The notes under the pieces: model-generated | Told to the model about the DNA's origin: nothing | Databases searched by the model: none | Seen by the model: the letters and a program-made list of their open reading frames with translations, nothing else | Shown here: in pieces, positions 17,887 through 54,583 of the stretch | Layout of the letters: each line of letters opens with the position of its first letter | How positions within the stretch are numbered: position 1 is the first letter of the stretch | NCBI GenBank assembly: GCA_028715415.1 | Contig: JAQURX010000001.1 | Span: forward strand, 154,584 to 218,583 | Reading direction: 5' to 3' | Length of the DNA: 64,000 nt | DNA from: Candidatus Omnitrophota bacterium | GTDB taxonomy: Bacteria; Omnitrophota; Gorgyraeia; Gygaellales; Profunditerraquicolaceae | Translations under genes and position numbers: made by a program

Positions 17887-17910
17887 TAGTACTTATGTAG
17901 AAGTAACTTG

Positions 17911-17945
17911 CCCTCGGGAGAGCAATCTCCCGAGGGTTTTTTTTA
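17911..17945 (+). terminator. Rho-independent terminator
   Basis: GC hairpin ccctcgggag-agcaatc-tcccgaggg followed by T9. Confidence 0.8.
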
Positions 17946-18068: not shown

Positions 18069-19619
18069 ATGCTAAATCTCGCCTTTATCTTCCATATGCA
18101 CCAGCCGTATTACAAGAACCTTTTAACGCAAGAGACAGATATGCCTTGGGTAAGGCTTCATGGCACGAAGGACTATCTGGATATGATACAGTTGCTTTCT
18201 AAATATCCCTTGATAAAACAAACGATTAATGTTGTTCCTTCCTTGATCGAACAGGTAGAGGATTATACAAACCGTACGATTAAAGACAAATTCTTAGAGC
18301 TTTCTTATAAACATGCCAAAGATTTATCTTTTGATGACAAGAAATTTATTCTGGAAAACTTCTTTTCTATAAATAAGGATAAAGTAATTGCGAATCACCC
18401 CCGTTATTATGAATTATATTTTAAGAATATAAGGCATTTAGAATTTAGTACTCAGGATTATTTGGATTTGCAGGTTTGGTTTAATCTCGCTTGGATTGAC
18501 CCAAGCTTTAGGCAAAGTTTCCCGGAATTGCGTGAAATAGTCAGTAAGGGGCGTTTTTTTACAGAAGAAGAGAAGCATGCTGTTTTAGACAGGCAGATTT
18601 ATATATTAGAAGACATTATCCCTACTTATAAAAAGTTTATTGAAAGCAAGCAGGCAGAGGTTACCGTTACTCCGTATTACCATCCAATATTGCCTTTACT
18701 TTTTAATACAAATATAGCTAAAGAAGCAAATCTTAAAACAATTTTACCTAAAGTGGAATTTTCTTTTCCGCAAGATGCAAGAGAGCAAATAGATAGTGCA
18801 GTAAGATTCTTTAAGTTACGCTTTGGAGAAAATCTACAAGGCATGTGGCCTTCAGAAGAAGCGGTAAGTGAGCATATATTGCCTTTTATGATTGATGCCG
18901 GAATCAAGTGGATAGTGGCAGATGAAGCGATACTCTTTAAATCTCTTCACAGAAAGAAAAGAGATACCGATATTTTGTATCAGCCGCATCTTTTAAAAAG
19001 AGAAGATGGCGAGCTTAATATTGTTTTTCGTGATAGATGCCTTTCAGATTTAATCGGTTTTGTCTATCAGGCTTGGAAACCGGTTGATGCTGTAAATGAT
19101 TTTATGAAACATATGGAGAATATCTCTGAAGCATTTAAGGGGCATGACATCTTAGTTAGCATTGCAATGGACGGAGAAAATGCTTGGGAATATTTTACTA
19201 ATGATGGGCATGATTTCTTAGAGTTATTATACCAGAGGTTGTCTGAATCAAAGTTTGTTAAGACTACCACAGTTTCGGAGTATTTAAAAACGCATAAGAC
19301 TGAACATGAAATAAAGCGCCTTGCCGCTGGCTCTTGGATTTACGGAGAATTTGGAAAATGGATAGGGAATCCTCATAAAGTGAAAGCATGGGAATATTTA
19401 GCTTTAGCAAGAAAAGAATTGCAAACCTTAATTGAGAATGGAACGGATATCCCTGATTTAGCATGGAAGCAGATGTATATTTGTGAAGGTAGTGATTGGT
19501 TTTGGTGGTACGGTGAAGACCCTTATGGCGGGTTTGACAGGTTATTCAGAGTACATTTATCTAATTTTTATAAGCTGATAGGGAAAAATATTCCTGATTA
19601 TTTGAACAATCCTATTTAA
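18069..19619 (+). CDS. Glycoside hydrolase family 57 (alpha-glucan-active)
   Basis: GH57 N-terminal signature (FHMHQPYY). Catalytic region with WxxDGENxWE-like motif (AMDGENAWEYF). Confidence 0.8.
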   Translation: MLNLAFIFHMHQPYYKNLLTQETDMPWVRLHGTKDYLDMIQLLSKYPLIKQTINVVPSLIEQVEDYTNRTIKDKFLELSYKHAKDLSFDDKKFILENFFSINKDKVIANHPRYYELYFKNIRHLEFSTQDYLDLQVWFNLAWIDPSFRQSFPELREIVSKGRFFTEEEKHAVLDRQIYILEDIIPTYKKFIESKQAEVTVTPYYHPILPLLFNTNIAKEANLKTILPKVEFSFPQDAREQIDSAVRFFKLRFGENLQGMWPSEEAVSEHILPFMIDAGIKWIVADEAILFKSLHRKKRDTDILYQPHLLKREDGELNIVFRDRCLSDLIGFVYQAWKPVDAVNDFMKHMENISEAFKGHDILVSIAMDGENAWEYFTNDGHDFLELLYQRLSESKFVKTTTVSEYLKTHKTEHEIKRLAAGSWIYGEFGKWIGNPHKVKAWEYLALARKELQTLIENGTDIPDLAWKQMYICEGSDWFWWYGEDPYGGFDRLFRVHLSNFYKLIGKNIPDYLNNPI

Positions 19620-19677
19620 TTGCTAAAGGCCAATAACTTATTGACATGCAAGGGCTTTTATGTTATAAATTTTAAAA

Positions 19678-20241
19678 ATGGACAAGAAAGAGATATACGA
19701 ACATTTAGCGAAAATCTATTTAGACGCCTCCGCAAAGAAGAAGAAAAAAATAAAAACCTTTCCAAAATTCTTTACGCATATAATTGTGGTGGTTGTCGTT
19801 ATTGTATTCGCTTCTAGTTTATTTTCCCTCAAGTTTTTCTTAAAAAAGAAACCAAATAAAACTGAAATTGCTTTAATTGTGCTTCCAGAAGCGACAAAAA
19901 TCAATTTCCATTTCAATCCGGCCAAGAAAGAAGTATTAAACATTAGTTTAAATAAGTTAAATTTATCACGTTATAATAGTTTAGTTTTTTCAGTTAAGAA
20001 TACAAATTATCGTGATAAGATTTCTCTTAGGGTTGAGTTTTCAAATTCATTTAAAGAAAAATCGGAAATTTATTTTAAAGAGATTCCTCATAAGTGGCAG
20101 GAATATAGGATTAATCTTGCTCAATTCAAAGGGGTGAATGATTGGACTGAGATGTCCGATTTATCTTTTTGTGTGGAAGAATGGAATGTTCTAGAAAAAA
20201 AAGGTGTTGTTTTTATAGATAATGTAAGATTCGTGAAATAA
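19678..20241 (+). CDS. Hypothetical membrane-anchored protein
   Basis: Single TM helix after a lysine-rich N-terminus. No recognisable motifs. Confidence 0.3.
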
Positions 20242-20260
20242 TAACAAGGGAGGGTTTGAT

Positions 20261-21355
20261 ATGCGCATTATTTCTGTTGCAAATCAAAAAGGTGGTTGTG
20301 GTAAGACTACCACGGCAATAAATTTAGCCGCTTCGTTATCAGCTAATAACAGAAAAGTTTTATTGGTGGACCTCGATCCTCAGGCGCATGCTACTTGTGG
20401 GCTTAATATTAAATTTTATTTAAGTATGTATAATGTTTTATCAAAGATTACCAATAAAAAAGCTAAGCTTGATGATATCATTCAAAAAGTTGATGATAAT
20501 TTTGATATAGCTCCTTCAAATATTGTCTTAAGTACGCTTGAGCAGGAATTAGCAGGCGAGATTGGAAGGGAGTTACGGCTTTGGGAGACTTTAAACAATC
20601 TTAAGACTGATTATGATTATATTATAATTGATTGCCCTCCAAACCTTGGAATCTTGACAATAAACGCAATTCGTGCATCAGGAGAGATAATCATACCGGT
20701 TGAGGCAAGTAGGTTCTCGTTAGAGGGAGTTGACCAGTTGGCTAGTATTGTTGATTTGGTCAGAGATAGGCTTTCTCATGAGGTAAAAACGAGGATTTTG
20801 GTAACTAATTTTGACTCAAGGCTGCGCCATTCGTTTACAATGCTTGATAAGATTAAGGTGGCATTTAAGGGTAAACTTTTTAGCAATATTGTCCATGTTA
20901 ACGTAAAATTAAAGGAAGCTCAAAATGACGGTGCCCATATTTTTAAATATGATAAATATTGCAGAGGCGCAAAAGATTATTTTAGCTTGGGCAGGGAAAT
21001 AATTACTCAAGAGAAAGCTACTAGTGTTTCTTTGGTGCTAGAAAAGAAAATGAACGAACTTTTAAAAGAAAATCTTCCAAGTTTGATTGAAGTCGGGTTT
21101 TCCGTGAATGCCCCAGAAGCAAAAGAAGTGCATATAGTTGGAGAATTCAATAATTGGAAAATTGATGAAGAAAGCAAGATGGTTAATGATGGCGGTGCTT
21201 GGAGAAAAAAGTTGAATTTGGGCAAAGGTAAATACCGTTATCGTTTTGTAGTTGATGGCGCTTGGATTGAAGATACCAGTAATCCACTAAAAGAGCTTAA
21301 CCCATACGGAACCGAAGATTCTTTGATTGAGGTTACGAATAATAATATTAAATAG
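20261..21355 (+). CDS. ParA/MinD-family ATPase fused to a C-terminal CBM48/AMPK-beta glycogen-binding domain
   Basis: Deviant Walker A ([16 protein letters not shown]). C-terminal ~90 aa match the CBM48 pattern ([10 protein letters not shown]...[17 protein letters not shown]). Confidence 0.75.
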
Positions 21356-21368
21356 AGTTTAGTCTTGC

Positions 21369-21701
21369 ATGGGTGATTCTGACAACCAGAGAGAAAAAGA
21401 TTTAAAAGAAGGAAGGTTTTTTGCTATTATCTCATACATGAGTTTTTTGTGTGTAATAAGCCTTCTATTAAAAAAAGAGAATAAATTTGTTCTTTTTCAT
21501 GCAAAACAAGGATTGGCGCTTTTTGTTCTTGAGGTGGCAAGCTTTATCCTTTCAGTTATACCTATTTTTAATTGGCTCATAGGTAGTATTGGCTTTGCAA
21601 TTTTTATGCTTATGTCCTTATGGGGGATTTATGGAGTTCTAAAGGGGCGCTGTAACCGCATAATTTTAGTCTCAAATATTGCAGAGAAAATTGTACTTTA
21701 G
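21369..21701 (+). CDS. Small integral membrane protein
   Basis: Three predicted TM helices. No recognisable motifs. Confidence 0.4.
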   Translation: MGDSDNQREKDLKEGRFFAIISYMSFLCVISLLLKKENKFVLFHAKQGLALFVLEVASFILSVIPIFNWLIGSIGFAIFMLMSLWGIYGVLKGRCNRIILVSNIAEKIVL

Positions 21702-21727: not shown

Positions 21728-22123
21728 ATGGTAGTAAAAAAGAAAACAAAGAAAAAGGTTAAAATTACAAAAAGAAAAACATCTAAGGCAAAACTTGCTA
21801 AGAAAGTTGTTAAGAAGAAGCCTTCTGTTAAACCAAAGCTGAAGAAGTCAAAGGTTGTAATTAAAAAGAAGAATTCGCAAGGCAGCTTGATTGGCGTAAT
21901 AACGCATTATTTCCCGCATGTAAGGGCTGCAGTTGTTAAGATGAAGGCTCAGTTAGCTGCAGGAGATTCGATAAAAATAAAAGGGCATACTACAGATTTT
22001 ACGCAAGTAGCATCTTCTTTGCAGATAGATCGTTTACCAATTCAATTAGCTAAAAAAGGCGATGAAATAGGCCTTTTGGTTGAATCAAGAGTCAGAAGTG
22101 GAGATTTGGTTTATAAAGTTTAG
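21728..22123 (+). CDS. Lysine-rich histone H1-like protein with C-terminal beta-rich domain
   Basis: N-terminal ~60 aa of K/A/V repeats (KKKTKKKVKITKRK...). The C-terminal domain is not assigned. Confidence 0.4.
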   Translation: MVVKKKTKKKVKITKRKTSKAKLAKKVVKKKPSVKPKLKKSKVVIKKKNSQGSLIGVITHYFPHVRAAVVKMKAQLAAGDSIKIKGHTTDFTQVASSLQIDRLPIQLAKKGDEIGLLVESRVRSGDLVYKV

Positions 22124-22150
22124 CATTATTCTTAAAAGAGAGGGGGAAGA

Positions 22151-22333
22151 ATGAGACTTTCAGAGATTGAAAAGAAAGCAAGTAATTTAGGCATAAAAGA
22201 TTACCGTAAACTCTCCAAGAAAGATTTAATTAAAGCTATCCAGAAAAAAGAAGGAAATTTTGATTGTTTTGGTAGTGCTAAAAAAAGTTGCAGCCAGACA
22301 GCTTGCTGTTGGATTAGTGATTGCGTAAAATAA
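22151..22333 (+). CDS. Small protein with Rho-N/SAP-like N-terminal motif and Cys-rich tail
   Basis: LSEIEKKASNLGIKDYRKLSKKDLIKAIQ resembles the Rho_N helix-extended-helix motif. C-terminal CFGS...CSQTACCW..DC. Confidence 0.3.
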   Translation: MRLSEIEKKASNLGIKDYRKLSKKDLIKAIQKKEGNFDCFGSAKKSCSQTACCWISDCVK

Positions 22334-22360
22334 AGCTTAAGCGTAAAAAAAGGATAAATA

Positions 22361-22546
22361 ATGAAATATAGGTGTCAAATTTGCGAAAGAGATATTGATG
22401 ATTTTGTAAGCATTGCTCATGCAAAGGCAGAAGAGTATTTAATTGAGTTGATTAGGCGCGATCACCCTGAATGGAAAGAAACCGGTCAAAACTGCCACAA
22501 ATGCGTTGAGTATTACCGAAAGCTCGTTAAAGAAACTGAGATTTAA
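22361..22546 (+). CDS. Small zinc-ribbon protein
   Basis: CxxC...H..CxxC spacing (CQICE ... CHKCVEYY). Confidence 0.3.
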   Translation: MKYRCQICERDIDDFVSIAHAKAEEYLIELIRRDHPEWKETGQNCHKCVEYYRKLVKETEI

Positions 22547-22554
22547 TTTTTTTT

Positions 22555-22585
22555 AAGGCCTGATTTTTTTTCAGGCCTTTAAAAT
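22555..22585 (+). terminator. Hairpin terminator candidate
   Basis: aaggcctga-tttttttt-tcaggcctt stem-loop directly after the stop codon. Confidence 0.5.
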
Positions 22586-22665
22586 TGGCTATTTTTGGGT
22601 AAGTACTCATAATAACTAGGGCGTTAAATGTAAGTAGATTTAAGTAAAAGAAAGGTATTATAAGT

Positions 22666-23289: not shown

Positions 23290-24432
23290 TTACATTTTCC
23301 TGGTGAAAGCGGTTATTGCAGGATAGATTAAGTTATCGCCATAGCGGTTGTTTATCTTATCAACGGCTTTTATAAGCGCTTCCCTTCTTTGATCCTCTTT
23401 GAATAAAAAGGTATAATTCTGTTCTTGAAGCTTACTGCAATTTACCCCTATCGCTCTTATTTTTGGCTTATTTTGGGCTGTTTTATCCATGATTTTTAGG
23501 CATCTTTCGCAGATTACACATCCATCATTGGTAGCTTCTTGATAGGTTTTTTGGGCCCCAAAATTGCCTATTTCTGGGCCATTTAGCCAAAGATGCACAG
23601 TTGAGGCTGTTAGATTACTGCTTCTTAAGCGCTCTGCAACCATCTCGGATAAAAGCCTGATCCAAGCTTTTATAAATACCGGGTTTTGTGAGGCCATGGG
23701 AAACGTATATGAATGGCTTATTGATTTAGGTTTTGGCTCATTGCTTAAGTCAAAATGCCCATTTGAGTGCAGTGATCCGTAAATGTTAAGGCCGTATTGG
23801 CCCAATCTTTCTTTTAAGAAGCTTGGGTTTTTCTGGTATAAATCAAGGCAGGTTTTAATGCCTGATTCATATAATGCTTGCCCAATTTTTCCTCCCATTC
23901 CGCAGAGTTTATTAATTGTAGTTTTATCTAGGATAAGGTTTAAATTTTCTTCGGTTAGTATAGTTATGCCTTTTGGTTTTTTTATTTTTGAGGCAAGTTT
24001 TGCCAGTATCCAGTTTTTTGCTATACCTATTGAAGCTGTGATGTTAAAGTTCTTAAATATTTCTTCTTGAATTTCTTCGGCTACGGTTCTCAAATCAGGT
24101 GTGTTAGGGATGTCTATTTGAAATTCATCAATTGAGGCATAGTTAACTGCAAATCCATATTCTTTGAGTAATTCTAAAATTTGCGTGGATGTCCAGATAT
24201 ACTTTGACTGGTCTGCTGCTACAAATTCTAAGTTTGGGCATATTTTAAAAGCTTCAGCTGAGGTCATTCCTGAAGAAATTCCGTATGCTTTGGCTTCATA
24301 GCTTGCAGCGCAAACTACAGTATGCATTTTGTTTCCACGCGAACCTACAATCAGGGGTTTATTTTTTAATTTAGGATTAATTGCCTGCTCAATAGATGCA
24401 AAAAAAGCATCCATATCAATATGAATAATCAT
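23290..24432 (-). CDS. dinB: Y-family DNA polymerase IV
   Basis: N-terminal catalytic motif (MIIHIDMDAFFASIEQ). Y-family palm/fingers/little-finger length. Lies in an operon downstream of lexA. Confidence 0.85.
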   Translation of the reverse strand: MIIHIDMDAFFASIEQAINPKLKNKPLIVGSRGNKMHTVVCAASYEAKAYGISSGMTSAEAFKICPNLEFVAADQSKYIWTSTQILELLKEYGFAVNYASIDEFQIDIPNTPDLRTVAEEIQEEIFKNFNITASIGIAKNWILAKLASKIKKPKGITILTEENLNLILDKTTINKLCGMGGKIGQALYESGIKTCLDLYQKNPSFLKERLGQYGLNIYGSLHSNGHFDLSNEPKPKSISHSYTFPMASQNPVFIKAWIRLLSEMVAERLRSSNLTASTVHLWLNGPEIGNFGAQKTYQEATNDGCVICERCLKIMDKTAQNKPKIRAIGVNCSKLQEQNYTFLFKEDQRREALIKAVDKINNRYGDNLIYPAITAFTRKM

Positions 24433-24436
24433 GTTT

Positions 24437-24751
24437 TTAATGTAATATTTTATTAATTCGCCAGCCGAATGTGGTATTGTTGAAGGAAATTTGGTAGGTA
24501 TCTAGTGCTGTGGTTACGGAAAAATAAATTATTGTTTCTTTGCCGGATTTTTCCTGCCAGGTGAAATTAGTTTTTTCAATCTCATATTGTTTTTTGTTCC
24601 ATATGAATGTGTGCGGATAAATTTTAGCGTTTCTAAACCAGCTTAAGACTTCAATTTTTTCGTCTAAAGCATCTGTATTGGTATTGTAATCTGTTTGCGG
24701 GATATTTCTATCCCAGCGTGCCTTTGGGCTAAATCCGGATGGTATTTCCAT
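24437..24751 (-). CDS. Hypothetical protein cotranscribed with lexA and dinB
   Basis: Tight spacing of 12 bp and 5 bp to its neighbours. No recognisable motifs. Confidence 0.4.
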   Translation of the reverse strand: MEIPSGFSPKARWDRNIPQTDYNTNTDALDEKIEVLSWFRNAKIYPHTFIWNKKQYEIEKTNFTWQEKSGKETIIYFSVTTALDTYQISFNNTTFGWRINKILH

Positions 24752-24762
24752 GGGCGCAAGCT

Positions 24763-25356
24763 CTAGTATTTTCTTATTACGGTGATTAATTTCCCGATTA
24801 CAGTAAAATCTTTGCGTATGGGCTCGTAATTTTTGTTTGCAGGTTCCAGGTATATTCCTTTAGTATTATTAATAAGCCTTTTTAGGGTTACTTCATTGTT
24901 TTCTAAAAGTGCTGCGATAATATCTCCATTTTCAGCATCAGGTTTCTTTTTAATAATTGCAAAGTCTCCTTGGATTATTCCTGCATCAATCATGCTGTCG
25001 CCAGTTACTTTTAAGGCAAAAACATCATCATAACTTAAGCGTCCAAGAAATAAATCGTTTGGATCAATATAGCCTTGTATATCTTCGTAGGCTACGTTGG
25101 GTTTACCTGCAGCTATGGAGCCTAATATAGGAATTTTCCCAAAGTTGCTATTAGTTAATTCAATGCCGCGTGATTTAAGATTTGTGCGTTTAAGGTAGCC
25201 TTTGTTTTCCAAAACAGCTAAATAATCTCTTACTGTCCCGGTTGAAGAAAAATCTAAGGCTTTGGCAATTTCCCTTATTGTTGGCGGAAGGCGCTTCTGG
25301 ATTCTTTGTTGAATGAAGTTTAGGACTTTTTGTTGTTTAGGGGTAAGTTCTTCCAT
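24763..25356 (-). CDS. lexA: LexA repressor
   Basis: N-terminal winged HTH (MEELTPKQQKVLNFIQ). C-terminal S24 peptidase with Ser (GDSM) and Lys (IKKKP) and the Ala-Gly cleavage site (SIAAGKP). The start is set at an internal Met so that the upstream palindrome is intergenic. Confidence 0.85.
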   Translation of the reverse strand: MEELTPKQQKVLNFIQQRIQKRLPPTIREIAKALDFSSTGTVRDYLAVLENKGYLKRTNLKSRGIELTNSNFGKIPILGSIAAGKPNVAYEDIQGYIDPNDLFLGRLSYDDVFALKVTGDSMIDAGIIQGDFAIIKKKPDAENGDIIAALLENNEVTLKRLINNTKGIYLEPANKNYEPIRKDFTVIGKLITVIRKY

Positions 25357-25369
25357 GGGTAGGAATATA

Positions 25370-25385
25370 CCACACATTTGTGTGG
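25370..25385 (-). promoter_or_regulatory. Candidate LexA operator (perfect palindrome)
   Basis: CCACACATTTGTGTGG, 14-29 bp upstream of the proposed lexA start. Confidence 0.5.
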
Positions 25386-25969: not shown

Positions 25970-26437
25970 TTATTTTTCCCAATTATTTACATCGTCTTCA
26001 TTGCCTTCAGTGGCATCTTTTCCTGATGAATATAAATCATAATCTTTTCTGTTGGTGCCCGGGCTTTTGTAATGATAAGGATTACCCCATGGGTCAAGCG
26101 GCTTTTTCTCTAAATATGGGCCTTTCCAGTTTTTTGCCGAAGAGGGCGCGGTTATAAGAGCTTCAAGCCCCTCTTCTGTGGTTGGGAAAGCGCCGTTATC
26201 TAGTTCATACATCTTAAGCGCAGTAGCTATGTTAAGCTCGACATCAGCTTTGGCAACTCCTTTTCTTGCTTCTTCGGATCTGCCTGTTAACCTCGGCACG
26301 ACCATTGCTGCTAAAACACCTATAATAATGACTACTAACATCAGCTCTACCAGGGTAAAAGCTTTTCTTTTTAACATTTTTTCCTCCATTGTCACTTTAG
26401 TATTCAATCCAATTCCTGATCTTTCCTTTATCATCAA
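25970..26437 (-). CDS. gspG: Type II secretion major pseudopilin GspG
   Basis: Prepilin N-terminus (MLKRKAFTLVELMLVVIIIGVLAAM) with Glu+5. GspG C-terminal pattern (WKGPYL...DPWGNPYHY). The probable true start is an internal Met (~26377). Confidence 0.8.
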   Translation of the reverse strand: MMIKERSGIGLNTKVTMEEKMLKRKAFTLVELMLVVIIIGVLAAMVVPRLTGRSEEARKGVAKADVELNIATALKMYELDNGAFPTTEEGLEALITAPSSAKNWKGPYLEKKPLDPWGNPYHYKSPGTNRKDYDLYSSGKDATEGNEDDVNNWEK

Positions 26438-27299
26438 GGGTTATCTCGTATTTCATTGTTGAGTTATCTAAGATCTTGCCATCTGCTTTAATGGTAAAAC
26501 TACTGGATTTTACATCGATAGTGCTGTTTCCAACCAAGCTTGCCAGTAGAAGTTCTTCTTCGGTTGAGAGACTGCTGAATGAATTTAATTTGCTAATTAC
26601 CTCAGAGGTGTTTTCAAAGAAATTGTCGTCTTTGGTTGCCTCTTTGTTATCTGGACCATTACGGAATTCAATTATTGTTTTAGCCAAGCTATCGCTTAGC
26701 CCTAAGGCTTTTAATGCTTCTGTGCCAGCAGTGTTGATGTTAACTTTTCCATTACCATATATTGTAATACTATTCTTACAGGAATCAAAAACTTTTTCCT
26801 CGAAATCTTCAATATTCAAAAGTTCTTCTTTCACTCTTAATGGCTGTTTTGACCTGTAGGCAATTATTGATTCAGCTAGCTTTTGGCTGGCCGCATCGGA
26901 TAAATCAGAGGTGTTTTGTAATAGCCTTTCAATTATGTTTTGGCTGGCAGAATTCATATTAATTTTGCTTTCTTCGTCAACCAATACATAAGTTAACTTT
27001 CCTTTGCCAATTGCTATCTCTTTTTCTTCTCTTAGATTGTACAGATTGTCGTAAGCATGCTGAGTTTTTTCACCTTTTGCTTCTTTGTGATTTGCCATGT
27101 AGACGCAAGCAGCAAGTGCAAGATGCCTCGGCAGTATCCTGCCTTCTGTGCGGCGCGCTAATCTGATCTGAGTTGATATTATGTTGTATAATCCGAGAGA
27201 TAGTATTAGAAAGAAAGCTAGTACCCAGATTGAGACAACAAGGATGCTTCCCGAATTATGATATCGGTATTGGGATTGTTTTGGTGAATTCTTTATCAT
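26397..27299 (-). CDS. gspK: Type II secretion minor pseudopilin GspK
   Basis: N-terminal hydrophobic helix. GspK hallmark YVLVDEESKINMNSAS. Helix-hairpin-helix VNINTAGTEALKALGL. Confidence 0.7.
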   Translation of the reverse strand: MIKNSPKQSQYRYHNSGSILVVSIWVLAFFLILSLGLYNIISTQIRLARRTEGRILPRHLALAACVYMANHKEAKGEKTQHAYDNLYNLREEKEIAIGKGKLTYVLVDEESKINMNSASQNIIERLLQNTSDLSDAASQKLAESIIAYRSKQPLRVKEELLNIEDFEEKVFDSCKNSITIYGNGKVNINTAGTEALKALGLSDSLAKTIIEFRNGPDNKEATKDDNFFENTSEVISKLNSFSSLSTEEELLLASLVGNSTIDVKSSSFTIKADGKILDNSTMKYEITLDDKGKIRNWIEY

Positions 27300-27825
27300 T
27301 GTATTTAGCGGTAATTTTTAGCGCAAGAAACATTCCATTTTCTGGCTTCCAGCTTTCTGACCAGATGAAGGTTTTTTTAGCCTTATCGTAGGATAAACAA
27401 CTTACTGAAAAGCTTGTCATGTCCATGATTTTTTCTTCCAAGCCTTCTTTCTCGCTATCCTTACTGATATCTTTTAAATCAATTTGGCTGCGCATTAGAG
27501 CTTTTGAATTTTCGTCAAATCTATATAATATTTTGACAATTTTATTATTTATAATTGAAGGGAATGAAAATCCGCTAATGCTTCCGGAGTCTTGAGTTTC
27601 AGGATTAACAGCAAAACCGATCTCTTTTATATCAACGCTTTGTTGTAATTCTTTTGATATCTTTTCAAAAACAAGGATTGCTTCATTATAGTCTTTACTT
27701 AAATCCTGCGCACGCCTCCATATTTTTACTCCTGAAACAAAACTTGTCGCAATGCCTGTTCCGATAATTGCGAAAATTACTGTTACAACTAAAGTTTCAA
27801 CGAGAGTGAAGCCTTTGTGCCTCAT
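27256..27825 (-). CDS. gspJ: Minor pseudopilin (GspJ-like)
   Basis: Prepilin N-terminus (MRHKGFTLVETLVVTVIFAIIG). Size and position between the GspI and GspK genes. Confidence 0.55.
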   Translation of the reverse strand: MRHKGFTLVETLVVTVIFAIIGTGIATSFVSGVKIWRRAQDLSKDYNEAILVFEKISKELQQSVDIKEIGFAVNPETQDSGSISGFSFPSIINNKIVKILYRFDENSKALMRSQIDLKDISKDSEKEGLEEKIMDMTSFSVSCLSYDKAKKTFIWSESWKPENGMFLALKITAKYNDKEFTKTIPIPIS

Positions 27826-27826
27826 A

Positions 27827-28228
27827 TTATTTGCTCGCTTTTTTGCTTAAAAGGTATGTTCCTAAAGAAGCATCCTTTTTATTATTTCCTTGTTCCCATG
27901 AAACGCTGATTTGAAAATCAGTTATATTTTCTTCCAGTTCTTGAGCATTCCAGTTTAAATCCCCAATGCCCTCGTCTTTTGCTTGCGTTTGTTTTTCCGT
28001 TAAGAGCCCAAGTATATCCTGGTCTGAGGAATCAAATCCGTCTTTTGCCTGAGACCTTTTTTCTACTTCCGAGAGGACATTGTCAATGAATTCTACTTTT
28101 TGAACAATGCTATTAGAATAATCAAGTGCGGAAACAGCGCTTAGTAATGAACGCGCAATTCCTACCAGGCCGATTGCCAATATGCAGGTCGCTACCATAA
28201 GCTCAACCAATGTAAAAGCTTTTTTCAT
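27827..28228 (-). CDS. gspI: Minor pseudopilin (GspI/GspH-like)
   Basis: Prepilin N-terminus (MKKAFTLVELMVATCILAIG). 133 aa. Confidence 0.55.
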   Translation of the reverse strand: MKKAFTLVELMVATCILAIGLVGIARSLLSAVSALDYSNSIVQKVEFIDNVLSEVEKRSQAKDGFDSSDQDILGLLTEKQTQAKDEGIGDLNWNAQELEENITDFQISVSWEQGNNKKDASLGTYLLSKKASK

Positions 28229-28234
28229 AAAATT

Positions 28235-28765
28235 TTAATTTGGAATAATCAGGCTAACGGTAATATCAATCCTTAGGGTTGTTGCTTGTTCGTCTCTTGA
28301 AGAAATCGACAATTTGTCGAGTTTTATAAGAAGATTGCTATTTTGAATTCTGTTCAGGAATCCGAGCAGTTGTTCAGTATTTCCTTCAAGCCGAAGGTCG
28401 GCGCTACATTTATTATATTCTGGATTCTGTTCAAATTTATCTTGTGGCGCAAGGTTTAAAACTGAGATTCCCGATTCTTGGGTTATTTTTTCAATTTCTC
28501 TTAATAATTTCGCGACTATATCCCTTTCCTGAGTTTCAAAAGTAAGATACTTGCTATATGTTTGGTATTCCTGGGCAATTTTGTCCTTATTTTTCTGTAT
28601 GCTTATTCCTTTTTTCGCTATCGCTTCTTCTAATTTAATTTTCTTATTTAATTCAGCAATCTTTGTTCGAAAGCCTGATAGGACGATTTTATCTATAAAA
28701 AAGAATGCCAATAGGCAAACAACGAAACCAAATATTATTTTCTCTCTTTTTTTAAATTTAATCAT
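28235..28765 (-). CDS. gspM: GspM/PilO-like inner-membrane assembly protein
   Basis: Short cytoplasmic N-terminus, one TM helix, a coiled coil and a periplasmic alpha/beta domain. Position after gspL. Confidence 0.45.
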   Translation of the reverse strand: MIKFKKREKIIFGFVVCLLAFFFIDKIVLSGFRTKIAELNKKIKLEEAIAKKGISIQKNKDKIAQEYQTYSKYLTFETQERDIVAKLLREIEKITQESGISVLNLAPQDKFEQNPEYNKCSADLRLEGNTEQLLGFLNRIQNSNLLIKLDKLSISSRDEQATTLRIDITVSLIIPN

Positions 28766-30183
28766 TTGTTAGGTAGTTTAAATGCAATTTCAAAATCCGT
28801 TATTTCTTTGTCTTTAACCCTTCTCTTCCTGGTGTATTTAGTCTGTACGTCGCTAAAATAATTTGATTTTTCCAGTAAGTTGATAAACCTGAACACGTCG
28901 GATAATTGGAACGCCTGTCCTCGTAGGGTTATTGTGTTTTTGTCATCAATCCCGATAAAATTAAGCGCGATTTCTTCGGGGACTACTTTTAGCAGTTGGT
29001 TCATTATGAATAACGGTTTCTTGCGTTCAGATAGATAATTTTTGATAACTTCTGTTTTTTTGGCTTGATTTATTAATTCCTTGGCTTCTTTGTCAATAAC
29101 TCCCAGAAGTACGTCTATTCTATTAAGATAAGTCTGTTGGTTATAGATTTTTCCTAAGAATATCGCGCACACTATGCTAAATAAGTAAATTAAACTTATG
29201 CCTAAAACAAGCATTTCTTTTGTTTTTTCTCTTAAGGTTTTCTTGATTTGAATCTCAGGGAGGATGAAGGTAAGCCCATGGATCCCCTTATCTATGCAAA
29301 CCTCTGATATGGAAGTCATAGATACATCTGTAGGAATTTCGATTTTCTTTGTTTTGGAGAGTTCTTCAAAGTAATGGACAGGCGAAGATTTTACCGGGAT
29401 ATCTATCTCTTTTTCAATTACTTTGTTCAGTTCATTAATTATACTTGCTCCGGTTAAGAATATTTTAGCCGGTTTCTTATTAGCCTCTTCATTATAGAAT
29501 ATAAGCAGCGATTGTTTAATCTCTCCTAAGAGTTTCATAAGCCCTATATCATCTTTTGCTGCGATTGGATTTGCTCCTACGGGTATATTTCTTGAGAAGA
29601 GTAAGCCTTGTTTCGAGAAAACCAGGAAATCTGTATATGCAGAATCAATATCAAGGATTGCGTAGAAGTCGGTTTGATTTATTTCTGCCTTGTGGTTATC
29701 TAAAATCCATTGCAAGCTTTGATAGGAACTAAGCGCTATATTATCAGTGAAAAGCCCAGCTTTATCTAATACATTGGTTTGGCGCCTTAAAGCGTCAATT
29801 TGGATTATTGCTAAAATCACCTTTGAGTAACCCATTTCATCAACGCCGGATAGTTTGTAAGAGAAAATTATTTCTTCTCTTTTGTAAGGGACGACTCTTG
29901 CGATATGCAGCTCTATCATCTGAGATATCTCTTGAGGGTTTTGAGAAGGTAAGTGTAAATTTCTCACGGTTACAAAATCGCGAGGAATAGCGATAGAGAC
30001 TGTGTTTGCTTTTATCTTTTCTTGCCTGATAATCCCTGAGATTCTGCTTGCTATCTGTTCGTCGGTAAGGGCACTTATAGATTCAACGATGCAGTTGGTA
30101 ACAGTGGTTTGAGTTGCCAATGATTTCGTAGCAATGATTTTAAGGTACTGTTTATTGATTTCTATTGCGACAGATGTGCTCAT
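28762..30183 (-). CDS. gspL: GspL-like protein: cytoplasmic actin-like (PilM-type) domain, TM helix, periplasmic PilN-like domain
   Basis: ~320 aa cytoplasmic domain, TM segment (LVLGISLIYLFSIVCAIFLG) and a periplasmic C-terminus. Overlaps the gspM start. Confidence 0.55.
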   Translation of the reverse strand: MSTSVAIEINKQYLKIIATKSLATQTTVTNCIVESISALTDEQIASRISGIIRQEKIKANTVSIAIPRDFVTVRNLHLPSQNPQEISQMIELHIARVVPYKREEIIFSYKLSGVDEMGYSKVILAIIQIDALRRQTNVLDKAGLFTDNIALSSYQSLQWILDNHKAEINQTDFYAILDIDSAYTDFLVFSKQGLLFSRNIPVGANPIAAKDDIGLMKLLGEIKQSLLIFYNEEANKKPAKIFLTGASIINELNKVIEKEIDIPVKSSPVHYFEELSKTKKIEIPTDVSMTSISEVCIDKGIHGLTFILPEIQIKKTLREKTKEMLVLGISLIYLFSIVCAIFLGKIYNQQTYLNRIDVLLGVIDKEAKELINQAKKTEVIKNYLSERKKPLFIMNQLLKVVPEEIALNFIGIDDKNTITLRGQAFQLSDVFRFINLLEKSNYFSDVQTKYTRKRRVKDKEITDFEIAFKLPNK

Positions 30184-30184
30184 A

Positions 30185-31414
30185 TTAGTGCACCATTTGC
30201 GTAATTTGGAATGTTGGAAGTAATATGGCTAAAACGATTGTCCCTAGGATAACCCCCATTACCAGAATCATTAAAGGCTCAATTAGAGAAGTAATAAGCG
30301 CGATATCGGCTTCAATTTCCCGATTATAGGAATTATAAATTTCATCAAGCACGTCACTTAGCGTCCCTGATTCTTCTCCTACTGCAATCATCTTTGTAAA
30401 GAATTTCGGTAAGCTGGTGTAGTTCTCGGCACTTTTAGAAATCGTTTGTCCGGAAGCCACCTCTTTACAGACTTTTTTAAGCTCATCCTTTAAGGCTGGG
30501 TCTGAAATTGTAGGGATTGATACTTCTAATGATTTAAGTGCAGGGACTCCGCTTTTAATTAATAATCCGAAAGCACGCGAAAAATATGCAAGGTCTTGGT
30601 TCCTGCTTAATCTTTTAATGATAGGTAACTTAGTCCTTATCTTTACTAATATGTTAATAAAAGTAGAAGTTCCTTTTTTAAAATAGATATACAATATTAC
30701 AGCGGCTATTATGCCGGCAATAATATACCAGGTTTTATTAGAGAAGGCGCTTATTTGAAGGATTATTTTTGTAATGAGCGGCAGGTCTTTCCCAAGCCCT
30801 TCAAAAAGCGGTTTAAGTTTTGGTATGACAAAGTTTATAAGGATAAATATACTGGAAAGCCCAACCAGCATTAATAGTATTGGATACGCTAAAGCTACTC
30901 TTATTTTAGTCCTTAGGTTGTCCTCTCTTGTTAGAAAATCGCTTATCTGTTCAAGGGCGAAATCAAGCTTTCCACTTGCCTCCCCTGCTCTTATTAGATT
31001 GATAAAAAGAGTTGAAAATATATTGGGGAATTTTGCAAGTGAATCGGAGAAAGTTTTGCCTTCTTTTGTTGCGTTATAGATTTCATGGATTACTTCTCTA
31101 AAACGTTGGTTGTCGGCTTGCTCATAAATAATCCTTAAGCTGGAAAGTAACTCAACACGGGCTCTTATCAGGGTAGTTAGCTTCAGGGTAAATTGCAGGA
31201 TTTCTTTAGAAGAAATTTTCTTGTTGATGATGACTTTCGCTTTTTTTGTTTTTGAAGTTCCTGCATCAGCTGCTGTAGTATGTTCTGAAATTGAAATAGG
31301 GAAAAGCCCTTGGGAGGTTAATTTATTTACGGCATCATCCCTGTTTATTGCTTCAATATGTCCATCAACAGTTTGATGCAATCCCTTTTTTGCTTTATAG
31401 ATAAATTTTGGCAT
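30185..31414 (-). CDS. gspF: Type II secretion inner-membrane platform protein GspF
   Basis: Two GspF/PilC repeats and three TM segments. 409 aa. Confidence 0.85.
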   Translation of the reverse strand: MPKFIYKAKKGLHQTVDGHIEAINRDDAVNKLTSQGLFPISISEHTTAADAGTSKTKKAKVIINKKISSKEILQFTLKLTTLIRARVELLSSLRIIYEQADNQRFREVIHEIYNATKEGKTFSDSLAKFPNIFSTLFINLIRAGEASGKLDFALEQISDFLTREDNLRTKIRVALAYPILLMLVGLSSIFILINFVIPKLKPLFEGLGKDLPLITKIILQISAFSNKTWYIIAGIIAAVILYIYFKKGTSTFINILVKIRTKLPIIKRLSRNQDLAYFSRAFGLLIKSGVPALKSLEVSIPTISDPALKDELKKVCKEVASGQTISKSAENYTSLPKFFTKMIAVGEESGTLSDVLDEIYNSYNREIEADIALITSLIEPLMILVMGVILGTIVLAILLPTFQITQMVH

Positions 31415-31418
31415 TATT

Positions 31419-35373
<3,955 letters not shown>

Positions 35374-35382
35374 TTATTTTTT

Positions 35383-36867
35383 TTAAGTGTTTTTATTTAA
35401 CAATTCCGTTTTTACAGCTTTAAAGAAATCGGCGATCTTTTTATCCAGCTCCATTTTTATTTCAGGGGTAAGCTGTTTTTTATCTTTAATTTGTTTAATA
35501 AGTTCCGGACTTTCTTTGTATAAATATGGACAGAAGCCTTCTATATACTTTTTCAAGAACTCAACAGGAACTGCTTCTAGGATTTTTCTTTTAAAAGCGT
35601 AAAAAAGCACAATCTCTTCTTCTAACGGGATAGGATTGTTATTAGACTGCATTAATATCTGCCGCAGGGTTTCTCCGCGTTGTAGTTTCTCCGAAGCTTC
35701 TTTAGAAAGCCGGGTTCTAAGTTTTGTTAAGCGCAGCATTTCTCTGTATTGGGTATACTCAAGCCTAAGCCCGCTTCCAAGCTCTTTAATCGCTGGATAC
35801 TGGACTTTGCTTCCAATACGGGAAACTGAAAGCCCGACGTCAATTGCGGGCTTAAATCCTTCCCGGAATAGCGGGGTGCTGATATAAATTTGGCCATCAG
35901 TAATTGAGATAAGATTAGTCTGAATGTACCCGGTAATATCTCCTTGTAATGTTTCAGCAATAGGCAGGAATGTCATTGAGCCGCCACCTAATTCTTTTCT
36001 CAGCTTGGCCGCTCGTTCAAGAAGCTGGGAATGCAGATAGAAAATATCTCCCGGGTAAGCTTCTCTTCCGGGTGAGCGCTCAAGGAGTAATGACATTTGC
36101 CGATAGATCCATGCATGTTTTGTTAGATCATCAAATACAACGAGTACACTTTTTCCCGCATACATAAAGTATTCTCCCAAGGCGGATGCAACGTATGGGG
36201 CAAGGTATTGTTCGGCTGCAGGAGTGTCTGCGGAAGCAGAAACGACAATCGTATATTTTAAAGCGTCTTTATCCAAGAGAGAGTAAATAACTTTTTTTAA
36301 CGCTGTCTCCGGACCGCCTATCCAGCAATAAATACAAATAACATCTTTATCTTTCTGGTTGATGATAGAGTCTATCCCAATGCTTGATTTACCGCTTTGT
36401 CTATCCCCGATAATAAGCTCTCTTTGGCCTTTTCCAACAGGGATGATGAAATCAACAATTTTAACTCCGGTAAGCATAGATTCGGTAACCGGTTCTCTTT
36501 CCATTACTCCGGGAGCTTGCCTAAAAACAGGGTAAAAATCGCTTGCTGCAATTTCACCTTTATTATCTATCGGTTCGCAAAGGCTGTTAACAATCCTTCC
36601 GATAAACTTTTCTCCAACAGGGACATTAATGATCTCGGCAAGCGAGCTAACAATTTCTCCTACTGAAACTTTGTTTTCTTGCCCAAAAATAATTACATTA
36701 ACATCTTCTTGGGTAAAGCCGATAACCATTCCTTTGATGCCTTGGGGGAATTGAATTAATTGACCGTAGACGCAGGAGGGTAAACCATCAATCTTTATGA
36801 TGCCGTTTTTTACTTCTTTGACTGTTCCTACCTCTTTTATGTCTAATGTTGGTATGTTTATACTCAT
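35383..36867 (-). CDS. atpA: F1 ATP synthase alpha subunit
   Basis: P-loop GDRQSGKS. 494 aa. Confidence 0.9.
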   Translation of the reverse strand: MSINIPTLDIKEVGTVKEVKNGIIKIDGLPSCVYGQLIQFPQGIKGMVIGFTQEDVNVIIFGQENKVSVGEIVSSLAEIINVPVGEKFIGRIVNSLCEPIDNKGEIAASDFYPVFRQAPGVMEREPVTESMLTGVKIVDFIIPVGKGQRELIIGDRQSGKSSIGIDSIINQKDKDVICIYCWIGGPETALKKVIYSLLDKDALKYTIVVSASADTPAAEQYLAPYVASALGEYFMYAGKSVLVVFDDLTKHAWIYRQMSLLLERSPGREAYPGDIFYLHSQLLERAAKLRKELGGGSMTFLPIAETLQGDITGYIQTNLISITDGQIYISTPLFREGFKPAIDVGLSVSRIGSKVQYPAIKELGSGLRLEYTQYREMLRLTKLRTRLSKEASEKLQRGETLRQILMQSNNNPIPLEEEIVLFYAFKRKILEAVPVEFLKKYIEGFCPYLYKESPELIKQIKDKKQLTPEIKMELDKKIADFFKAVKTELLNKNT

Positions 36868-36877
36868 AATTAGAGGT

Positions 36878-37597
36878 TTAACAGCCTTTTAGGTATGGTA
36901 TTGTTTTTTGTAATTTGTTCTTAAGGCTGCCATCAATAATGAATTCGCCTATCTGGATGATAATCCCTGCAATCAAATCAGGATTTATACTTTCTTCCAT
37001 GGTAATGTCCTGGCCTAATTTAATTGAGAGGGTATTTTTTAAACGCGATATTTCCTTTTCGTTTAATTTAAAACATGAAACGATTTTAATTTTATTTGAT
37101 TTTACGGTTATTCTTGTTTTGTCAAGGTTTTCTACTTCTTGGATAAGTTCATCAATTAGCTGATATTGCAATTGCTCATTATTTTTTCCGGTAAAAGCAA
37201 GCTTTAACATTTCCATTGAAAGCTCTAAGGCCTTGTTCTTTACGTCGGAAGCTATATTTTTGCGGATTCGTTCTATCTCATCATTCCCTTGAGTAAGTAA
37301 CTTTTGTTTTTCAAGCTTTGCATCTTCTTCTGCTTTCTGGCGCAAAGAATCACAAAGCAACCTTGCTTCATCAACGATTTTTTTGGAATCAGCCCTTGCT
37401 TTATCAAATTCCGCTAATTTTAATTTTCTTGCTTCTTCAAGTTCTTTTTTTACTTGAGCTTCTCTTGCCGATAGCTCAGCCTGTAGTTCTTTAAGCCGGG
37501 TTTCCGCGTAGCCAAGATGTTTTTTATAGAGGATCCTAAGTAAGAATAGCAATCCGAAAACAGCAGCTACTTGCAGGATAATTAATTGGATAATCAT
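36878..37597 (-). CDS. atpF: Fused Fo b / F1 delta (OSCP) subunit
   Basis: N-terminal TM helix and long coiled coil (b-like). C-terminal delta signature (INPDLIAGIIIQIGEFIIDGSLKNKL). Confidence 0.65.
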   Translation of the reverse strand: MIIQLIILQVAAVFGLLFLLRILYKKHLGYAETRLKELQAELSAREAQVKKELEEARKLKLAEFDKARADSKKIVDEARLLCDSLRQKAEEDAKLEKQKLLTQGNDEIERIRKNIASDVKNKALELSMEMLKLAFTGKNNEQLQYQLIDELIQEVENLDKTRITVKSNKIKIVSCFKLNEKEISRLKNTLSIKLGQDITMEESINPDLIAGIIIQIGEFIIDGSLKNKLQKTIPYLKGC

Positions 37598-54495: not shown

Positions 54496-54583
54496 CTTCG
54501 GTAATCTGCCTGTCCCGGAATTTTCCCGGGATGCACGACTTTGCGTCCCTTGATTACTCAAGGTTTGCCTTTTCGGATAAAGA
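54496..54583 (-). promoter_or_regulatory. Cyclic-di-GMP-I (GEMM) riboswitch aptamer
   Basis: Minus-strand RNA CCGAAAAGGCAAACC-UUGAGUAAUCAA-GGGACGCAAAGUC...CCCGGGAAAAUUCCGGGA-CAGGCAGAUUACCGAAG. Carries the two GEMM-I signature blocks (GGCAAACC and GGGACGCAAAG) flanking a GNRA-loop P2 hairpin, a P3 hairpin and the 3' UUACCGA.G element, as in V. cholerae Vc2. Confidence 0.8.

What the first reader, a model, noticed from the sequence alone, without database searches (positions are those of the whole stretch)
18069..21355. ParA/MinD-type ATPase carrying a C-terminal CBM48 glycogen-binding domain, next to a GH57 alpha-glucan enzyme
The 364-aa protein has a deviant Walker A (KGGCGKTT), typical of ParA-like positioning ATPases. 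Its last ~90 aa match the AMPK-beta/CBM48 glycogen-binding fold ([10 protein letters not shown]...[10 protein letters not shown]). ParA-like ATPases position cargo such as carboxysomes (McdA), chemoreceptor arrays and plasmids. A CBM48 adaptor domain together with a GH57 neighbour suggests a system that spatially organises or partitions glycogen-type granules. I am not aware that this architecture has been characterised.
Basis: inference. Interest (0 to 1): 0.6.

Follow-up and report, generated by a model that had tools for sequence, protein, structure and literature searches.

The report
Glycogen-binding ParA positioning ATPase family
This gene encodes a ParA-type "cargo-positioning" ATPase permanently fused to a glycogen-binding module; it belongs to a large, apparently undescribed family found in at least three bacterial phyla and may be a dedicated system for placing or partitioning glycogen stores in the cell.

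Summary
The 364-aa ORF at 20261-21355 is a complete Soj-type ParA ATPase joined by a helical stalk to an AMPK-beta-type CBM48. The residues that bind glycogen in AMPK are conserved. It is not an artefact: 128 of the 150 best 50%-identity cluster representatives share the architecture. Named members come from Omnitrophota, Planctomycetota (Phycisphaerae) and Nitrospirota.

In Omnitrophota the gene lies in an apparent five-gene operon: a GH57 amylopullulanase-like enzyme, a membrane-anchored protein with a CBM-like jelly-roll domain (adjacent in 69/69 loci), the fusion, a small membrane protein, and a poly-lysine-tailed protein (60/61). In other lineages GH57 is absent. There the downstream gene often encodes a P-loop-less ParA-fold protein that starts with a ParB-like "LGRGLEDxSHLFLS" peptide.

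The ATPase keeps its catalytic motifs, two Soj DNA-binding residues and most of the ParB-peptide pocket. My best reading (confidence about 0.5) is a ParA system that tethers or positions glycogen granules through a built-in cargo adaptor. No paper describing it was found. Glycogen binding, the matrix and the Omnitrophota partner are all untested.

The parts
17910..17937 (+). Intrinsic-terminator-like hairpin (12-bp stem, 8 G-C pairs, then a T-run) after the porin gene; likely upstream boundary of the operon
   Evidence: consensus scan only
18069..19619 (+). GH57 enzyme of 516 aa with no signal peptide; amylopullulanase-like, with motifs HMHQP, WPSEEA, DGENAW and EGSDW intact
   Evidence: Pfam PF03065 1.4e-58. 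Best solved relatives are Aquifex aeolicus AaApu entries such as 8zyi, at about 3e-80 to 4e-81. AaApu hydrolyses glycogen, and its motifs and catalytic dyad are given in PMC12106739. The gene lies directly upstream of TM190 in 39 of 44 assessable Omnitrophota loci.
19678..20241 (+). 'TM190': 187-aa single-pass membrane protein. It has an invariant N-terminal helix (res 1-19), a Lys-rich stretch, a TM helix (res 30-55) and a C-terminal jelly-roll beta-sandwich resembling CBM11/30/28. Candidate partner of the ATPase.
   Evidence: Adjacent upstream in 69/69 loci. Conservation. AF2 model pLDDT 84.8. Foldseek against PDB: CBM11 6r31 at 3.9e-7, plus CBM30 and CBM28. The family has 917 clusters, every named member among the 120 listed is Omnitrophota, and none has a Pfam domain.
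20261..21355 (+). ParA-CBM48 fusion protein (364 aa), the subject of the finding
20261..21016 (+). Soj-type ParA ATPase domain (res 1-252): Walker A K10/K15, D37/D39, Walker B D124; DNA-patch residues R187 and K216; hydrophobic partner-peptide pocket L129/I131/I134/L166/L171
   Evidence: (closest solved structure is M. xanthus ParA 8ray, 1.1e-52)
20963..21073 (+). Long C-terminal helix (res 235-271) that acts as the stalk or linker to the CBM; in other lineages it is replaced by disordered linkers of up to about 360 aa
   Evidence: AF2 model, pLDDT 93.3 overall and 72-84 in this segment; linker survey
21086..21346 (+). CBM48 / AMPK-beta-type glycogen-binding beta-sandwich (res 276-362)
21369..21701 (+). 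110-aa small membrane protein; a homologue carries a weak PF09685 MamF_MmsF/DUF4870 hit; optional member of the block
   Evidence: Present in 34/61 loci. Weak Pfam hit on the homologue. No Pfam hit for the window copy.
21728..22123 (+). 131-aa protein with a ~50-aa poly-Lys N-terminal tail and a conserved small beta-barrel ('translation elongation factor-like protein' in NCBI naming); second candidate partner or a nucleoid-binding factor
   Evidence: Downstream in 60/61 loci. Alignment. Weak EF-Tu domain-2 similarity. Family names.

Best explanation
This is a ParA/MinD-type positioning system whose ATPase carries its own cargo adaptor. Shown by sequence or model: the N-terminal domain is an intact Soj-type ATPase, and the C-terminal CBM48 keeps the residues that bind glycogen in AMPK beta. 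The two are joined by a stalk or a flexible linker. Inferred: the ATP-bound dimer binds the nucleoid through a conserved basic patch and presents two CBM48 modules. Together these grip the multivalent surface of glycogen particles by avidity. Granules would therefore be tethered to, spread over and inherited with the nucleoid. Inferred: a cognate partner protein docks a short N-terminal peptide into the conserved pocket at the dimer edge and triggers ATP hydrolysis. That releases the tether and makes the system dynamic. In many lineages the partner is a P-loop-less ParA-fold protein with a ParB-like LG(R/K)GL peptide. In Omnitrophota, including this window, the partner is probably the membrane-anchored TM190 or the poly-Lys protein. 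There the genes appear to be co-transcribed with a glycogen-degrading GH57 enzyme.
For: Domain identities pass curated cut-offs, and the model is confident, with pLDDT 93.3. Catalytic residues are invariant in 89 diverse members. The AMPK-equivalent sugar-binding residues are invariant or at least 90% conserved in sequences sharing only 26-40% identity (mutational data in PMC6274970). Linkers vary from about 7 to about 360 aa and are often acidic and disordered, as expected for a tether. The equivalents of B. subtilis Soj R189 and R218 (the latter also M. xanthus ParA R238) are conserved: R187 in 81/89 and K216 as K/R in 68/89 (PMC6393308, PMC12462528). Four of the six ParB-pocket residues are almost always hydrophobic and a fifth is hydrophobic in just over half. 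In about 21 loci with GC from 0.34 to 0.72, the next gene starts with K-x-LG(R/K)GLE(D/E)(I/V)SH(L/F)FLS. Of 22 motif matches in 387,161 ORF residues, 21 are in that position. The motif resembles the ParB ParA-binding motif LGRGLxxLI (PMC12462528, PMC11229316). That partner is a degenerate ParA fold (hhalign 96.8%, E 2.2e-10). In Omnitrophota the block GH57-TM190-fusion-polyK is more conserved than the flanking synteny. Gaps are short and a terminator lies upstream. The GH57 is closest to an enzyme that hydrolyses glycogen. Omnitrophota MAGs are reported to encode glycogen synthesis (PMC8542988).
Against: There is no experimental evidence for glycogen binding, DNA binding or positioning. Outside Omnitrophota no glycogen gene is linked to the fusion. 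The Phycisphaerae members have no conserved neighbour at all. A ParA that is covalently attached to its cargo differs from all characterised systems, where the activator sits on the cargo, so the Brownian-ratchet logic may not carry over. The Omnitrophota partner is not identified: a profile of the LGRGL-type peptides does not detect the TM190 N-terminus (best 1.6 bits). TM190 is a membrane protein whose folded domain is probably periplasmic, which fits a membrane-linked role better than a nucleoid one. One of the Soj DNA-patch positions (R215 equivalent) is not basic. The hydrophobic 'pocket' residues could be conserved for structural reasons. Whether these genomes also carry a canonical parAB was not determined.
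Confidence: 0.5

Rival explanations
1. Glycogen is the landmark or matrix rather than the cargo. The ATPase dimer accumulates on glycogen through two CBM48 modules, much as MinD needs dimerisation to hold the membrane. It then positions the protein that carries the activating peptide. In Omnitrophota that would be the membrane protein TM190 with its periplasmic CBM-like domain, so an envelope structure would be placed relative to the carbon store (a BcsQ-like role).
For: In known systems the peptide-bearing partner marks the cargo (PMC10241942). TM190 is adjacent in 69/69 loci, its only cytoplasmic part is an invariant 19-residue helix plus a Lys-rich stretch, and its folded domain is CBM-like. 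An alginate-export-type porin is usually nearby, in 26/36 loci.
Against: There is no glycosyltransferase, synthase or secretion ATPase in the block. The porin is separated by a strong terminator and is less conserved than the core. TM190 is restricted to Omnitrophota, whereas the fusion is much wider. The Soj DNA-binding residues are retained, which would not be needed if glycogen were the matrix. The TM190 topology is inferred only from the positive-inside rule.
Confidence: 0.17
2. It is the cell's chromosome-segregation or replication-control Soj, and the CBM48 is a regulatory sensor of carbon reserve. By analogy with AMPK, glycogen binding would modulate the ATPase and so couple the chromosome cycle to energy stores.
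For: The ParA domain is closest to chromosomal ParAs: M. xanthus 8ray at 1.1e-52, T. thermophilus Soj, H. pylori Soj. The DNA-patch residues and the ParB-peptide pocket are kept. The partner peptides resemble ParB's. In AMPK, glycogen binding to the CBM inhibits the kinase (PMC6274970). No second Soj was seen in the 64-kb window.
Against: No parB/ParBc gene was seen next to the fusion in any locus whose gene content was listed, and none is among the 25 most frequent Pfam families in 148 neighbouring ORFs. Where a partner is identifiable it is a pseudo-ParA, not a parS-binding CTPase. Canonical Soj sequences form a separate clade in a weak NJ tree. Only a small part of each genome was visible, so a separate parAB is not excluded.
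Confidence: 0.15
3. The C-terminal beta-sandwich no longer binds carbohydrate. It serves as a protein-protein interaction module, for example recruiting GH57 or other enzymes, or the partner.
For: E-set/CBM48 folds are used for protein contacts in some proteins. AMPK beta residues 68-123 are reported to bind the debranching enzyme independently of glycogen (PMC6274970). No glycogen genes are linked to the fusion outside Omnitrophota.
Against: The residues whose mutation abolishes or weakens glycogen binding in AMPK are the most conserved positions of the domain across very divergent members. That pattern is hard to explain without a sugar ligand.
Confidence: 0.08
4. The fusion is an assembly, frameshift or gene-calling artefact.
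For: None found.
Against: It is a single uninterrupted ORF. Hundreds of independent full-length homologues come from NCBI, JGI, ENA and Logan assemblies. The AF2 model is confident across the junction.
Confidence: 0.01

Closest known systems
Chromosomal ParABS (Soj/ParA with Spo0J/ParB), e.g. M. xanthus ParA (PDB 8RAY), T. thermophilus Soj, H. pylori Soj
   Same: Closest sequence relatives of the ATPase domain. Same deviant Walker A with the signature lysine, the same conserved DNA-binding arginine/lysine positions and the same hydrophobic ParB-peptide pocket. Partners in many lineages start with an LG(R/K)GL peptide like ParB's (PMC12462528, PMC11229316).
   Different: No ParB or parS partner gene is adjacent. 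Where recognisable, the partner is a P-loop-less ParA-fold protein, or in Omnitrophota a membrane protein or a poly-Lys protein. The ATPase carries a C-terminal CBM48 that no characterised ParA has.
McdA/McdB carboxysome positioning and other 'orphan' ParA/MinD cargo systems (PMC10241942)
   Same: A ParA-family ATPase dedicated to a non-DNA, cytoplasmic, particulate cargo. A small partner with a charged N-terminal peptide is encoded next door.
   Different: In those systems the cargo is linked through the partner protein only. Here a cargo-binding-type domain is fused to the ATPase itself. The inferred cargo is a storage polysaccharide, for which no ParA system was found in the literature searched. 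Not linked to carboxysome genes.
AMPK beta-subunit carbohydrate-binding module (CBM48; PDB 2F15, 1Z0M)
   Same: Best structural and sequence match of residues 276-362 (E 5.4e-9). Glycogen-contact residues are conserved. In both cases the module attaches a nucleotide-dependent regulatory enzyme to glycogen.
   Different: Attached to a P-loop ATPase instead of a kinase scaffold. Bacterial. N150 of AMPK beta1 is Asp in the window protein.
MinD (membrane binding that depends on dimerisation)
   Same: A C-terminal, individually weak binding element that would become effective only in the ATP dimer through two copies. This is a mechanistic analogy only.
   Different: MinD uses an amphipathic helix and the membrane. 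Here the element is a folded CBM, presumably binding a polysaccharide surface. No MinE or MinC.
BcsQ (ParA/MinD-family protein of cellulose secretion)
   Same: A ParA/MinD-family protein working with polysaccharide-related membrane components. Weak Pfam/NCBIfam hits to BcsQ models.
   Different: Scores are far below the family cut-off (61.5 against 157.85 bits). There is no cellulose synthase or other synthase in the locus.

Membership tests
ParA/MinD (deviant Walker A) ATPases | Deviant Walker A xKGGxxK[T/S] with the signature lysine, plus Walker A' and Walker B aspartates | tested here: met
   [10 protein letters not shown] is present. K10, G11, G12, K15, D37, D39 and D124 are invariant in 89 sequences. 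Pfam AAA_31 5.1e-55 and CbiA 1.2e-17.
ParA/MinD (deviant Walker A) ATPases | ATP-dependent sandwich dimerisation and partner-stimulated ATP hydrolysis | not testable with these tools
ParA/MinD (deviant Walker A) ATPases | Cognate partner encoded nearby that has a charged N-terminal ATPase-interacting peptide | tested here: inconclusive
   Met in about 21 loci of other lineages, which carry the LG(R/K)GL...SHLFLS peptide. For this window there are only candidates: the TM190 N-terminal helix plus Lys-rich stretch, and the poly-Lys tail. A profile of the peptide does not detect TM190.
Chromosomal ParABS (Soj-Spo0J) | parA adjacent to parB (ParBc/HTH CTPase), with parS sites | tested here: not met
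   No ParBc gene appears in the annotated neighbourhoods. None is among the 25 most frequent families of 148 neighbours, and none is in the window (by inspection). parS sites were not searched for.
Chromosomal ParABS (Soj-Spo0J) | Non-specific DNA-binding basic patch (B. subtilis Soj R189, R215, R218) | tested here: inconclusive
   The R189 equivalent is R187 (81/89). The R218 equivalent is K216 (K/R in 68/89). The R215 equivalent is Val and is not basic in most members. Actual DNA binding is not testable here.
CBM48 / AMPK1_CBM glycogen-binding modules | Profile match above the curated threshold and a beta-sandwich fold | tested here: met
   PF16561 47.4 bits (cut-off 26.8). PF02922 31.3 bits (cut-off 22.4). 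AMPK beta2 CBM at 5.4e-9. AF2 gives a beta-sandwich at res 276-359 with pLDDT of about 91-97.
CBM48 / AMPK1_CBM glycogen-binding modules | Sugar-contact residues (AMPK beta1 W100, K126, W133, G147) | tested here: met
   W299 is invariant. Position 328 is R in the window and K or R in the consensus. W335 and G350 are at least 90% conserved. Residue roles are from PMC6274970.
CBM48 / AMPK1_CBM glycogen-binding modules | Demonstrated binding to glycogen or malto-oligosaccharides | not testable with these tools
   Requires biochemistry.
GH57 amylopullulanase-like enzymes (the neighbour) | Five GH57 conserved regions with a catalytic Glu/Asp dyad | tested here: met
   HMHQP, WPSEEA, DGENAW and EGSDW were read in the sequence and match AaApu 11-HMHQP, 253-WPPEAS, 352-DGENCW and 442-LVAEGSDW. 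E of about 3e-80 to AaApu structures. The second region (GKGSV in AaApu) was not checked. Substrate specificity is not testable here.
McdA/McdB carboxysome system | Linkage to carboxysome genes and a McdB-type partner | tested here: not met
   No carboxysome genes are in the window or in related loci. McdA structures match only weakly (1e-14).

The most novel reading that the evidence does not exclude
ParA-CBM48 and its cognate partners form a previously unrecognised, multi-phylum system that actively positions or partitions glycogen granules. It would be the first ParA-type system for a storage polysaccharide. It would also be the first in which the cargo- or matrix-binding module is built into the ATPase, and the first in which the activator is a catalytically dead ParA paralogue that borrowed ParB's ParA-binding peptide.
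Probability: 0.4. Interest if true: 0.8.

Novelty: new variant of a known kind. Interest (0 to 1): 0.66.

Why it matters
Whether glycogen is placed in the bacterial cell and shared between daughters by a dedicated mechanism appears to be unsettled; my searches found no ParA-type system for any storage polysaccharide. This family offers a directly testable candidate. It has a clear handle (two tryptophans in the CBM), a defined activating peptide and members in several phyla. It would extend the ParA/MinD principle to a new class of cargo and show a new design, with the adaptor fused to the motor and a pseudo-ATPase as activator. That design is also of interest for synthetic 'positioning tags'. 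It would add a cell-biological feature to Omnitrophota, a poorly understood phylum of very small cells. If the AMPK-like sensing reading is right instead, it would link the chromosome cycle to carbon reserves.

Tried and rejected
- **TM190 as carrier of the LGRGL-type peptide.** By eye its N-terminus ([18 protein letters not shown]) looked like the partner motif. An HMM built from 20 class-B peptides does not retrieve TM190 above background (best 1.6 bits, 1 of the top 100 hits). The idea is kept only as an inference from position, conservation and charge.
- **A 'second ParA' about 5 kb downstream in several Omnitrophota loci.** It is a BY-kinase in an EPS locus and is unrelated.
- **Glycogen genes near non-Omnitrophota fusions.** None among the 25 most frequent of 110 Pfam families in 148 neighbouring ORFs.
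- **A separate canonical Soj/parAB in the same genomes.** The closest non-fusion ParAs were uninformative, so this is unresolved.
- **Single origin of the fusion.** The NJ tree is star-like and only weakly supportive.
- **Small neighbouring proteins.** Pfam and NCBIfam gave nothing significant for them.
- **Artefact hypothesis.** Rejected.
Full report
**Observation**

The window region holds five same-strand ORFs with short gaps (gaps):

| Gene | Coordinates | Size | Gap to next gene |
|---|---|---|---|
| GH57 | 18069-19619 | 516 aa | 58 nt |
| TM190 | 19678-20241 | 187 aa | 19 nt |
| ParA-CBM48 | 20261-21355 | 364 aa | 13 nt |
| small membrane protein | 21369-21701 | 110 aa | 26 nt |
| poly-Lys protein | 21728-22123 | 131 aa | 542 nt (to DUF134) |

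A strong terminator-like hairpin (17910-17937) follows the upstream porin gene. No convincing terminator lies inside the block. This fits a five-gene operon.

The 364-aa protein matches AAA_31 (5.1e-55) and CbiA at its N-terminus. Residues 278-362 match AMPK1_CBM (2.3e-12) and CBM_48 (2.6e-7), all above the curated cut-offs.

**Is the fusion real, and how widespread is it?**

The best 120 clusters (90% clustering) are 70-77% identical and cover 98-100% of the length. All carry PF16561, and every named one is Omnitrophota.

An exhaustive search of 1.84 billion 50%-identity representatives gave 59,425 hits. Of the best 150, 128 are ParA followed by CBM48, at 33-55% identity, with linkers from about 7 to about 360 residues. 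The long linkers are disordered and often acidic.

A metagenome scan with non-Omnitrophota CBMs gave 52 further fusion loci with GC from 0.34 to 0.71. Named members outside Omnitrophota are Nitrospirota, Sedimentisphaerales, Phycisphaerales and 'Planctomycetes bacterium'. The fusion is therefore an old, multi-phylum family.

**Anatomy of the fusion protein**

The AF2 model (pLDDT 93.3) shows a ParA fold, a long helix at 235-271, and a beta-sandwich at 276-359.

- The closest solved structure is the chromosomal ParA of M. xanthus (8ray, 1.1e-52), followed by T. thermophilus and H. pylori Soj.
- K10, K15, D37, D39 and D124 are invariant in 89 family members.
- The equivalents of the DNA-binding residues B. 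subtilis Soj R189 and R218 are R187 (81/89) and K216 (K/R in 68/89). The R215 equivalent is not basic (residue roles from PMC6393308).
- Of the six residues of the M. xanthus ParA pocket that receives ParB's N-terminal motif, four (L129, I131, I134, L166) are almost always hydrophobic. A fifth (L171) is hydrophobic in just over half of the sequences. V116 is Gln here (PMC12462528).
- In the CBM, the residues whose mutation abolishes or weakens glycogen binding in AMPK beta1 (W100, K126, W133, G147; PMC6274970) correspond to W299 (invariant), R/K328, W335 and G350 (both at least 90%).

**Context in Omnitrophota**

Counts are over 80 loci, using only those with enough flanking sequence:

| Neighbour | Loci with it |
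|---|---|
| TM190 directly upstream | 69/69 |
| Poly-Lys protein downstream | 60/61 |
| GH57 directly upstream of TM190 | 39/44 (one more at 7 kb) |
| Small membrane protein | 34/61 |
| Porin | 26/36 |
| PHP | 18/31 |
| DUF134 | 31/53 |
| DinB | 13/43 |

The core is held together beyond the background synteny, although GH57's margin over the porin is modest. A more distant member (46% identity) keeps porin-GH57-TM190-fusion-membrane protein while its flanks differ.

The GH57 is closest to Aquifex aeolicus AaApu (about 3e-80). AaApu is a catalytic-domain-only amylopullulanase that hydrolyses glycogen, and the signature motifs are intact in the window protein.

TM190 belongs to a family in which every named member is Omnitrophota; it has no Pfam domain. 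Its model (pLDDT 84.8) shows an invariant N-terminal helix, a Lys-rich stretch, a TM helix and a jelly-roll that matches CBM11, CBM30 and CBM28. By the positive-inside rule the jelly-roll is probably periplasmic; this is an inference.

The poly-Lys protein combines a ~50-residue Lys-rich tail with a barrel that NCBI names 'translation elongation factor-like protein'.

**Context elsewhere**

In about 21 loci of diverse GC content, the gene directly downstream begins with K-x-LG(R/K)GLE(D/E)(I/V)SH(L/F)FLS. A regular expression for the motif matched 22 times in 387,161 ORF residues, and 21 of those are in exactly that position. The expression was derived from the same data, so only its specificity is informative.

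The motif resembles ParB's ParA-binding motif: LGRGLxxLI in M. xanthus and MAKNKVLGRG in H. pylori (PMC12462528, PMC11229316). Without the peptide, the partners still cluster together. They align to the ParA domain at 96.8% probability (E 2.2e-10) but lack a P-loop. They are pseudo-ParA proteins.

The Phycisphaerae fusions have no conserved neighbour. Among 148 neighbouring ORFs of non-Omnitrophota fusions, none of the 25 most frequent Pfam families is a glycogen-metabolism family.

**Interpretation**

The ATPase appears fully competent, and the CBM appears to be a genuine alpha-glucan binder on a tether. The cytoplasm's main alpha-glucan is glycogen, and Omnitrophota MAGs are reported to make it (PMC8542988). 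I therefore favour a system that tethers or positions glycogen granules, with partner-triggered release.

The main uncertainties are these:
- which element is cargo and which is matrix;
- the identity of the Omnitrophota partner, given that my TM190-motif idea failed its test;
- whether this ParA coexists with a canonical parAB.

**Novelty**

Nine full-text searches found no description of a ParA-CBM48 protein or of a ParA system for glycogen. The survey paper on ParA/MinD cargos does not mention glycogen. I rate it a new variant of a known kind.

Noticed in passing
window 54497-54579 (-), with genes 53391-54398 (-) and 39800-53341 (-): A c-di-GMP-I riboswitch (Rfam RF01051, 66 bits) sits directly upstream of an IS200-like Y1 transposase-family gene. 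That gene is followed by a giant 4,513-aa gene with Kelch, Laminin_G_3 and DUF2341 domains. A second-messenger riboswitch in front of a giant surface-protein-like gene is unusual.
   Followed up: partly
L088:12154-12987, L090:2057-3010, L092:600-1589, L143:1937-2911 and about 17 other loci: A family of P-loop-less ParA/MinD-fold proteins that start with a ParB-like LG(R/K)GL...SHLFLS peptide, always encoded directly after a ParA-CBM48 gene. No Pfam or NCBIfam model covers them.
   Followed up: yes
P0122 (1812 aa), P0195, P0243, P0250, P0256: The closest relatives of this CBM outside the fusions are proteins with 6 to 18 tandem CBM48 repeats. They could be large multivalent glycogen-binding scaffolds.
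   Followed up: no
window 23290-25377 (-): A LexA / 104-aa unknown / DinB-type (IMS) polymerase cassette lies just downstream of the operon. It is conserved in a minority of related loci (DinB in 13/43).
   Followed up: no
window 22124-22665: A 542-nt gap with no ORF of 80 aa or more and no Rfam hit lies between the poly-Lys gene and the DUF134 regulator-like gene. Its content was not examined.
   Followed up: no
Phycisphaerae fusions such as P0228, P0233, P0235, P0201 (linker regions): The long linkers of this clade share a short helix motif (roughly A-x-x-L-L-A-T-[ST]-x-x-L-x-G) just after the ParA domain. It may be an extra interaction site.
   Followed up: no
L013:10137-14195 and five other Omnitrophota loci: An EPS export locus (Wza-like, chain-length regulator, BY-kinase) lies about 2-6 kb downstream of the operon in some genomes. 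The BY-kinase was first mistaken for a second ParA.
   Followed up: yes
window 25970-37597 (-): By eye, a pseudopilin / type II secretion or type IV pilus-like cluster is followed by ATP-synthase-like genes. Not profiled.
   Followed up: no
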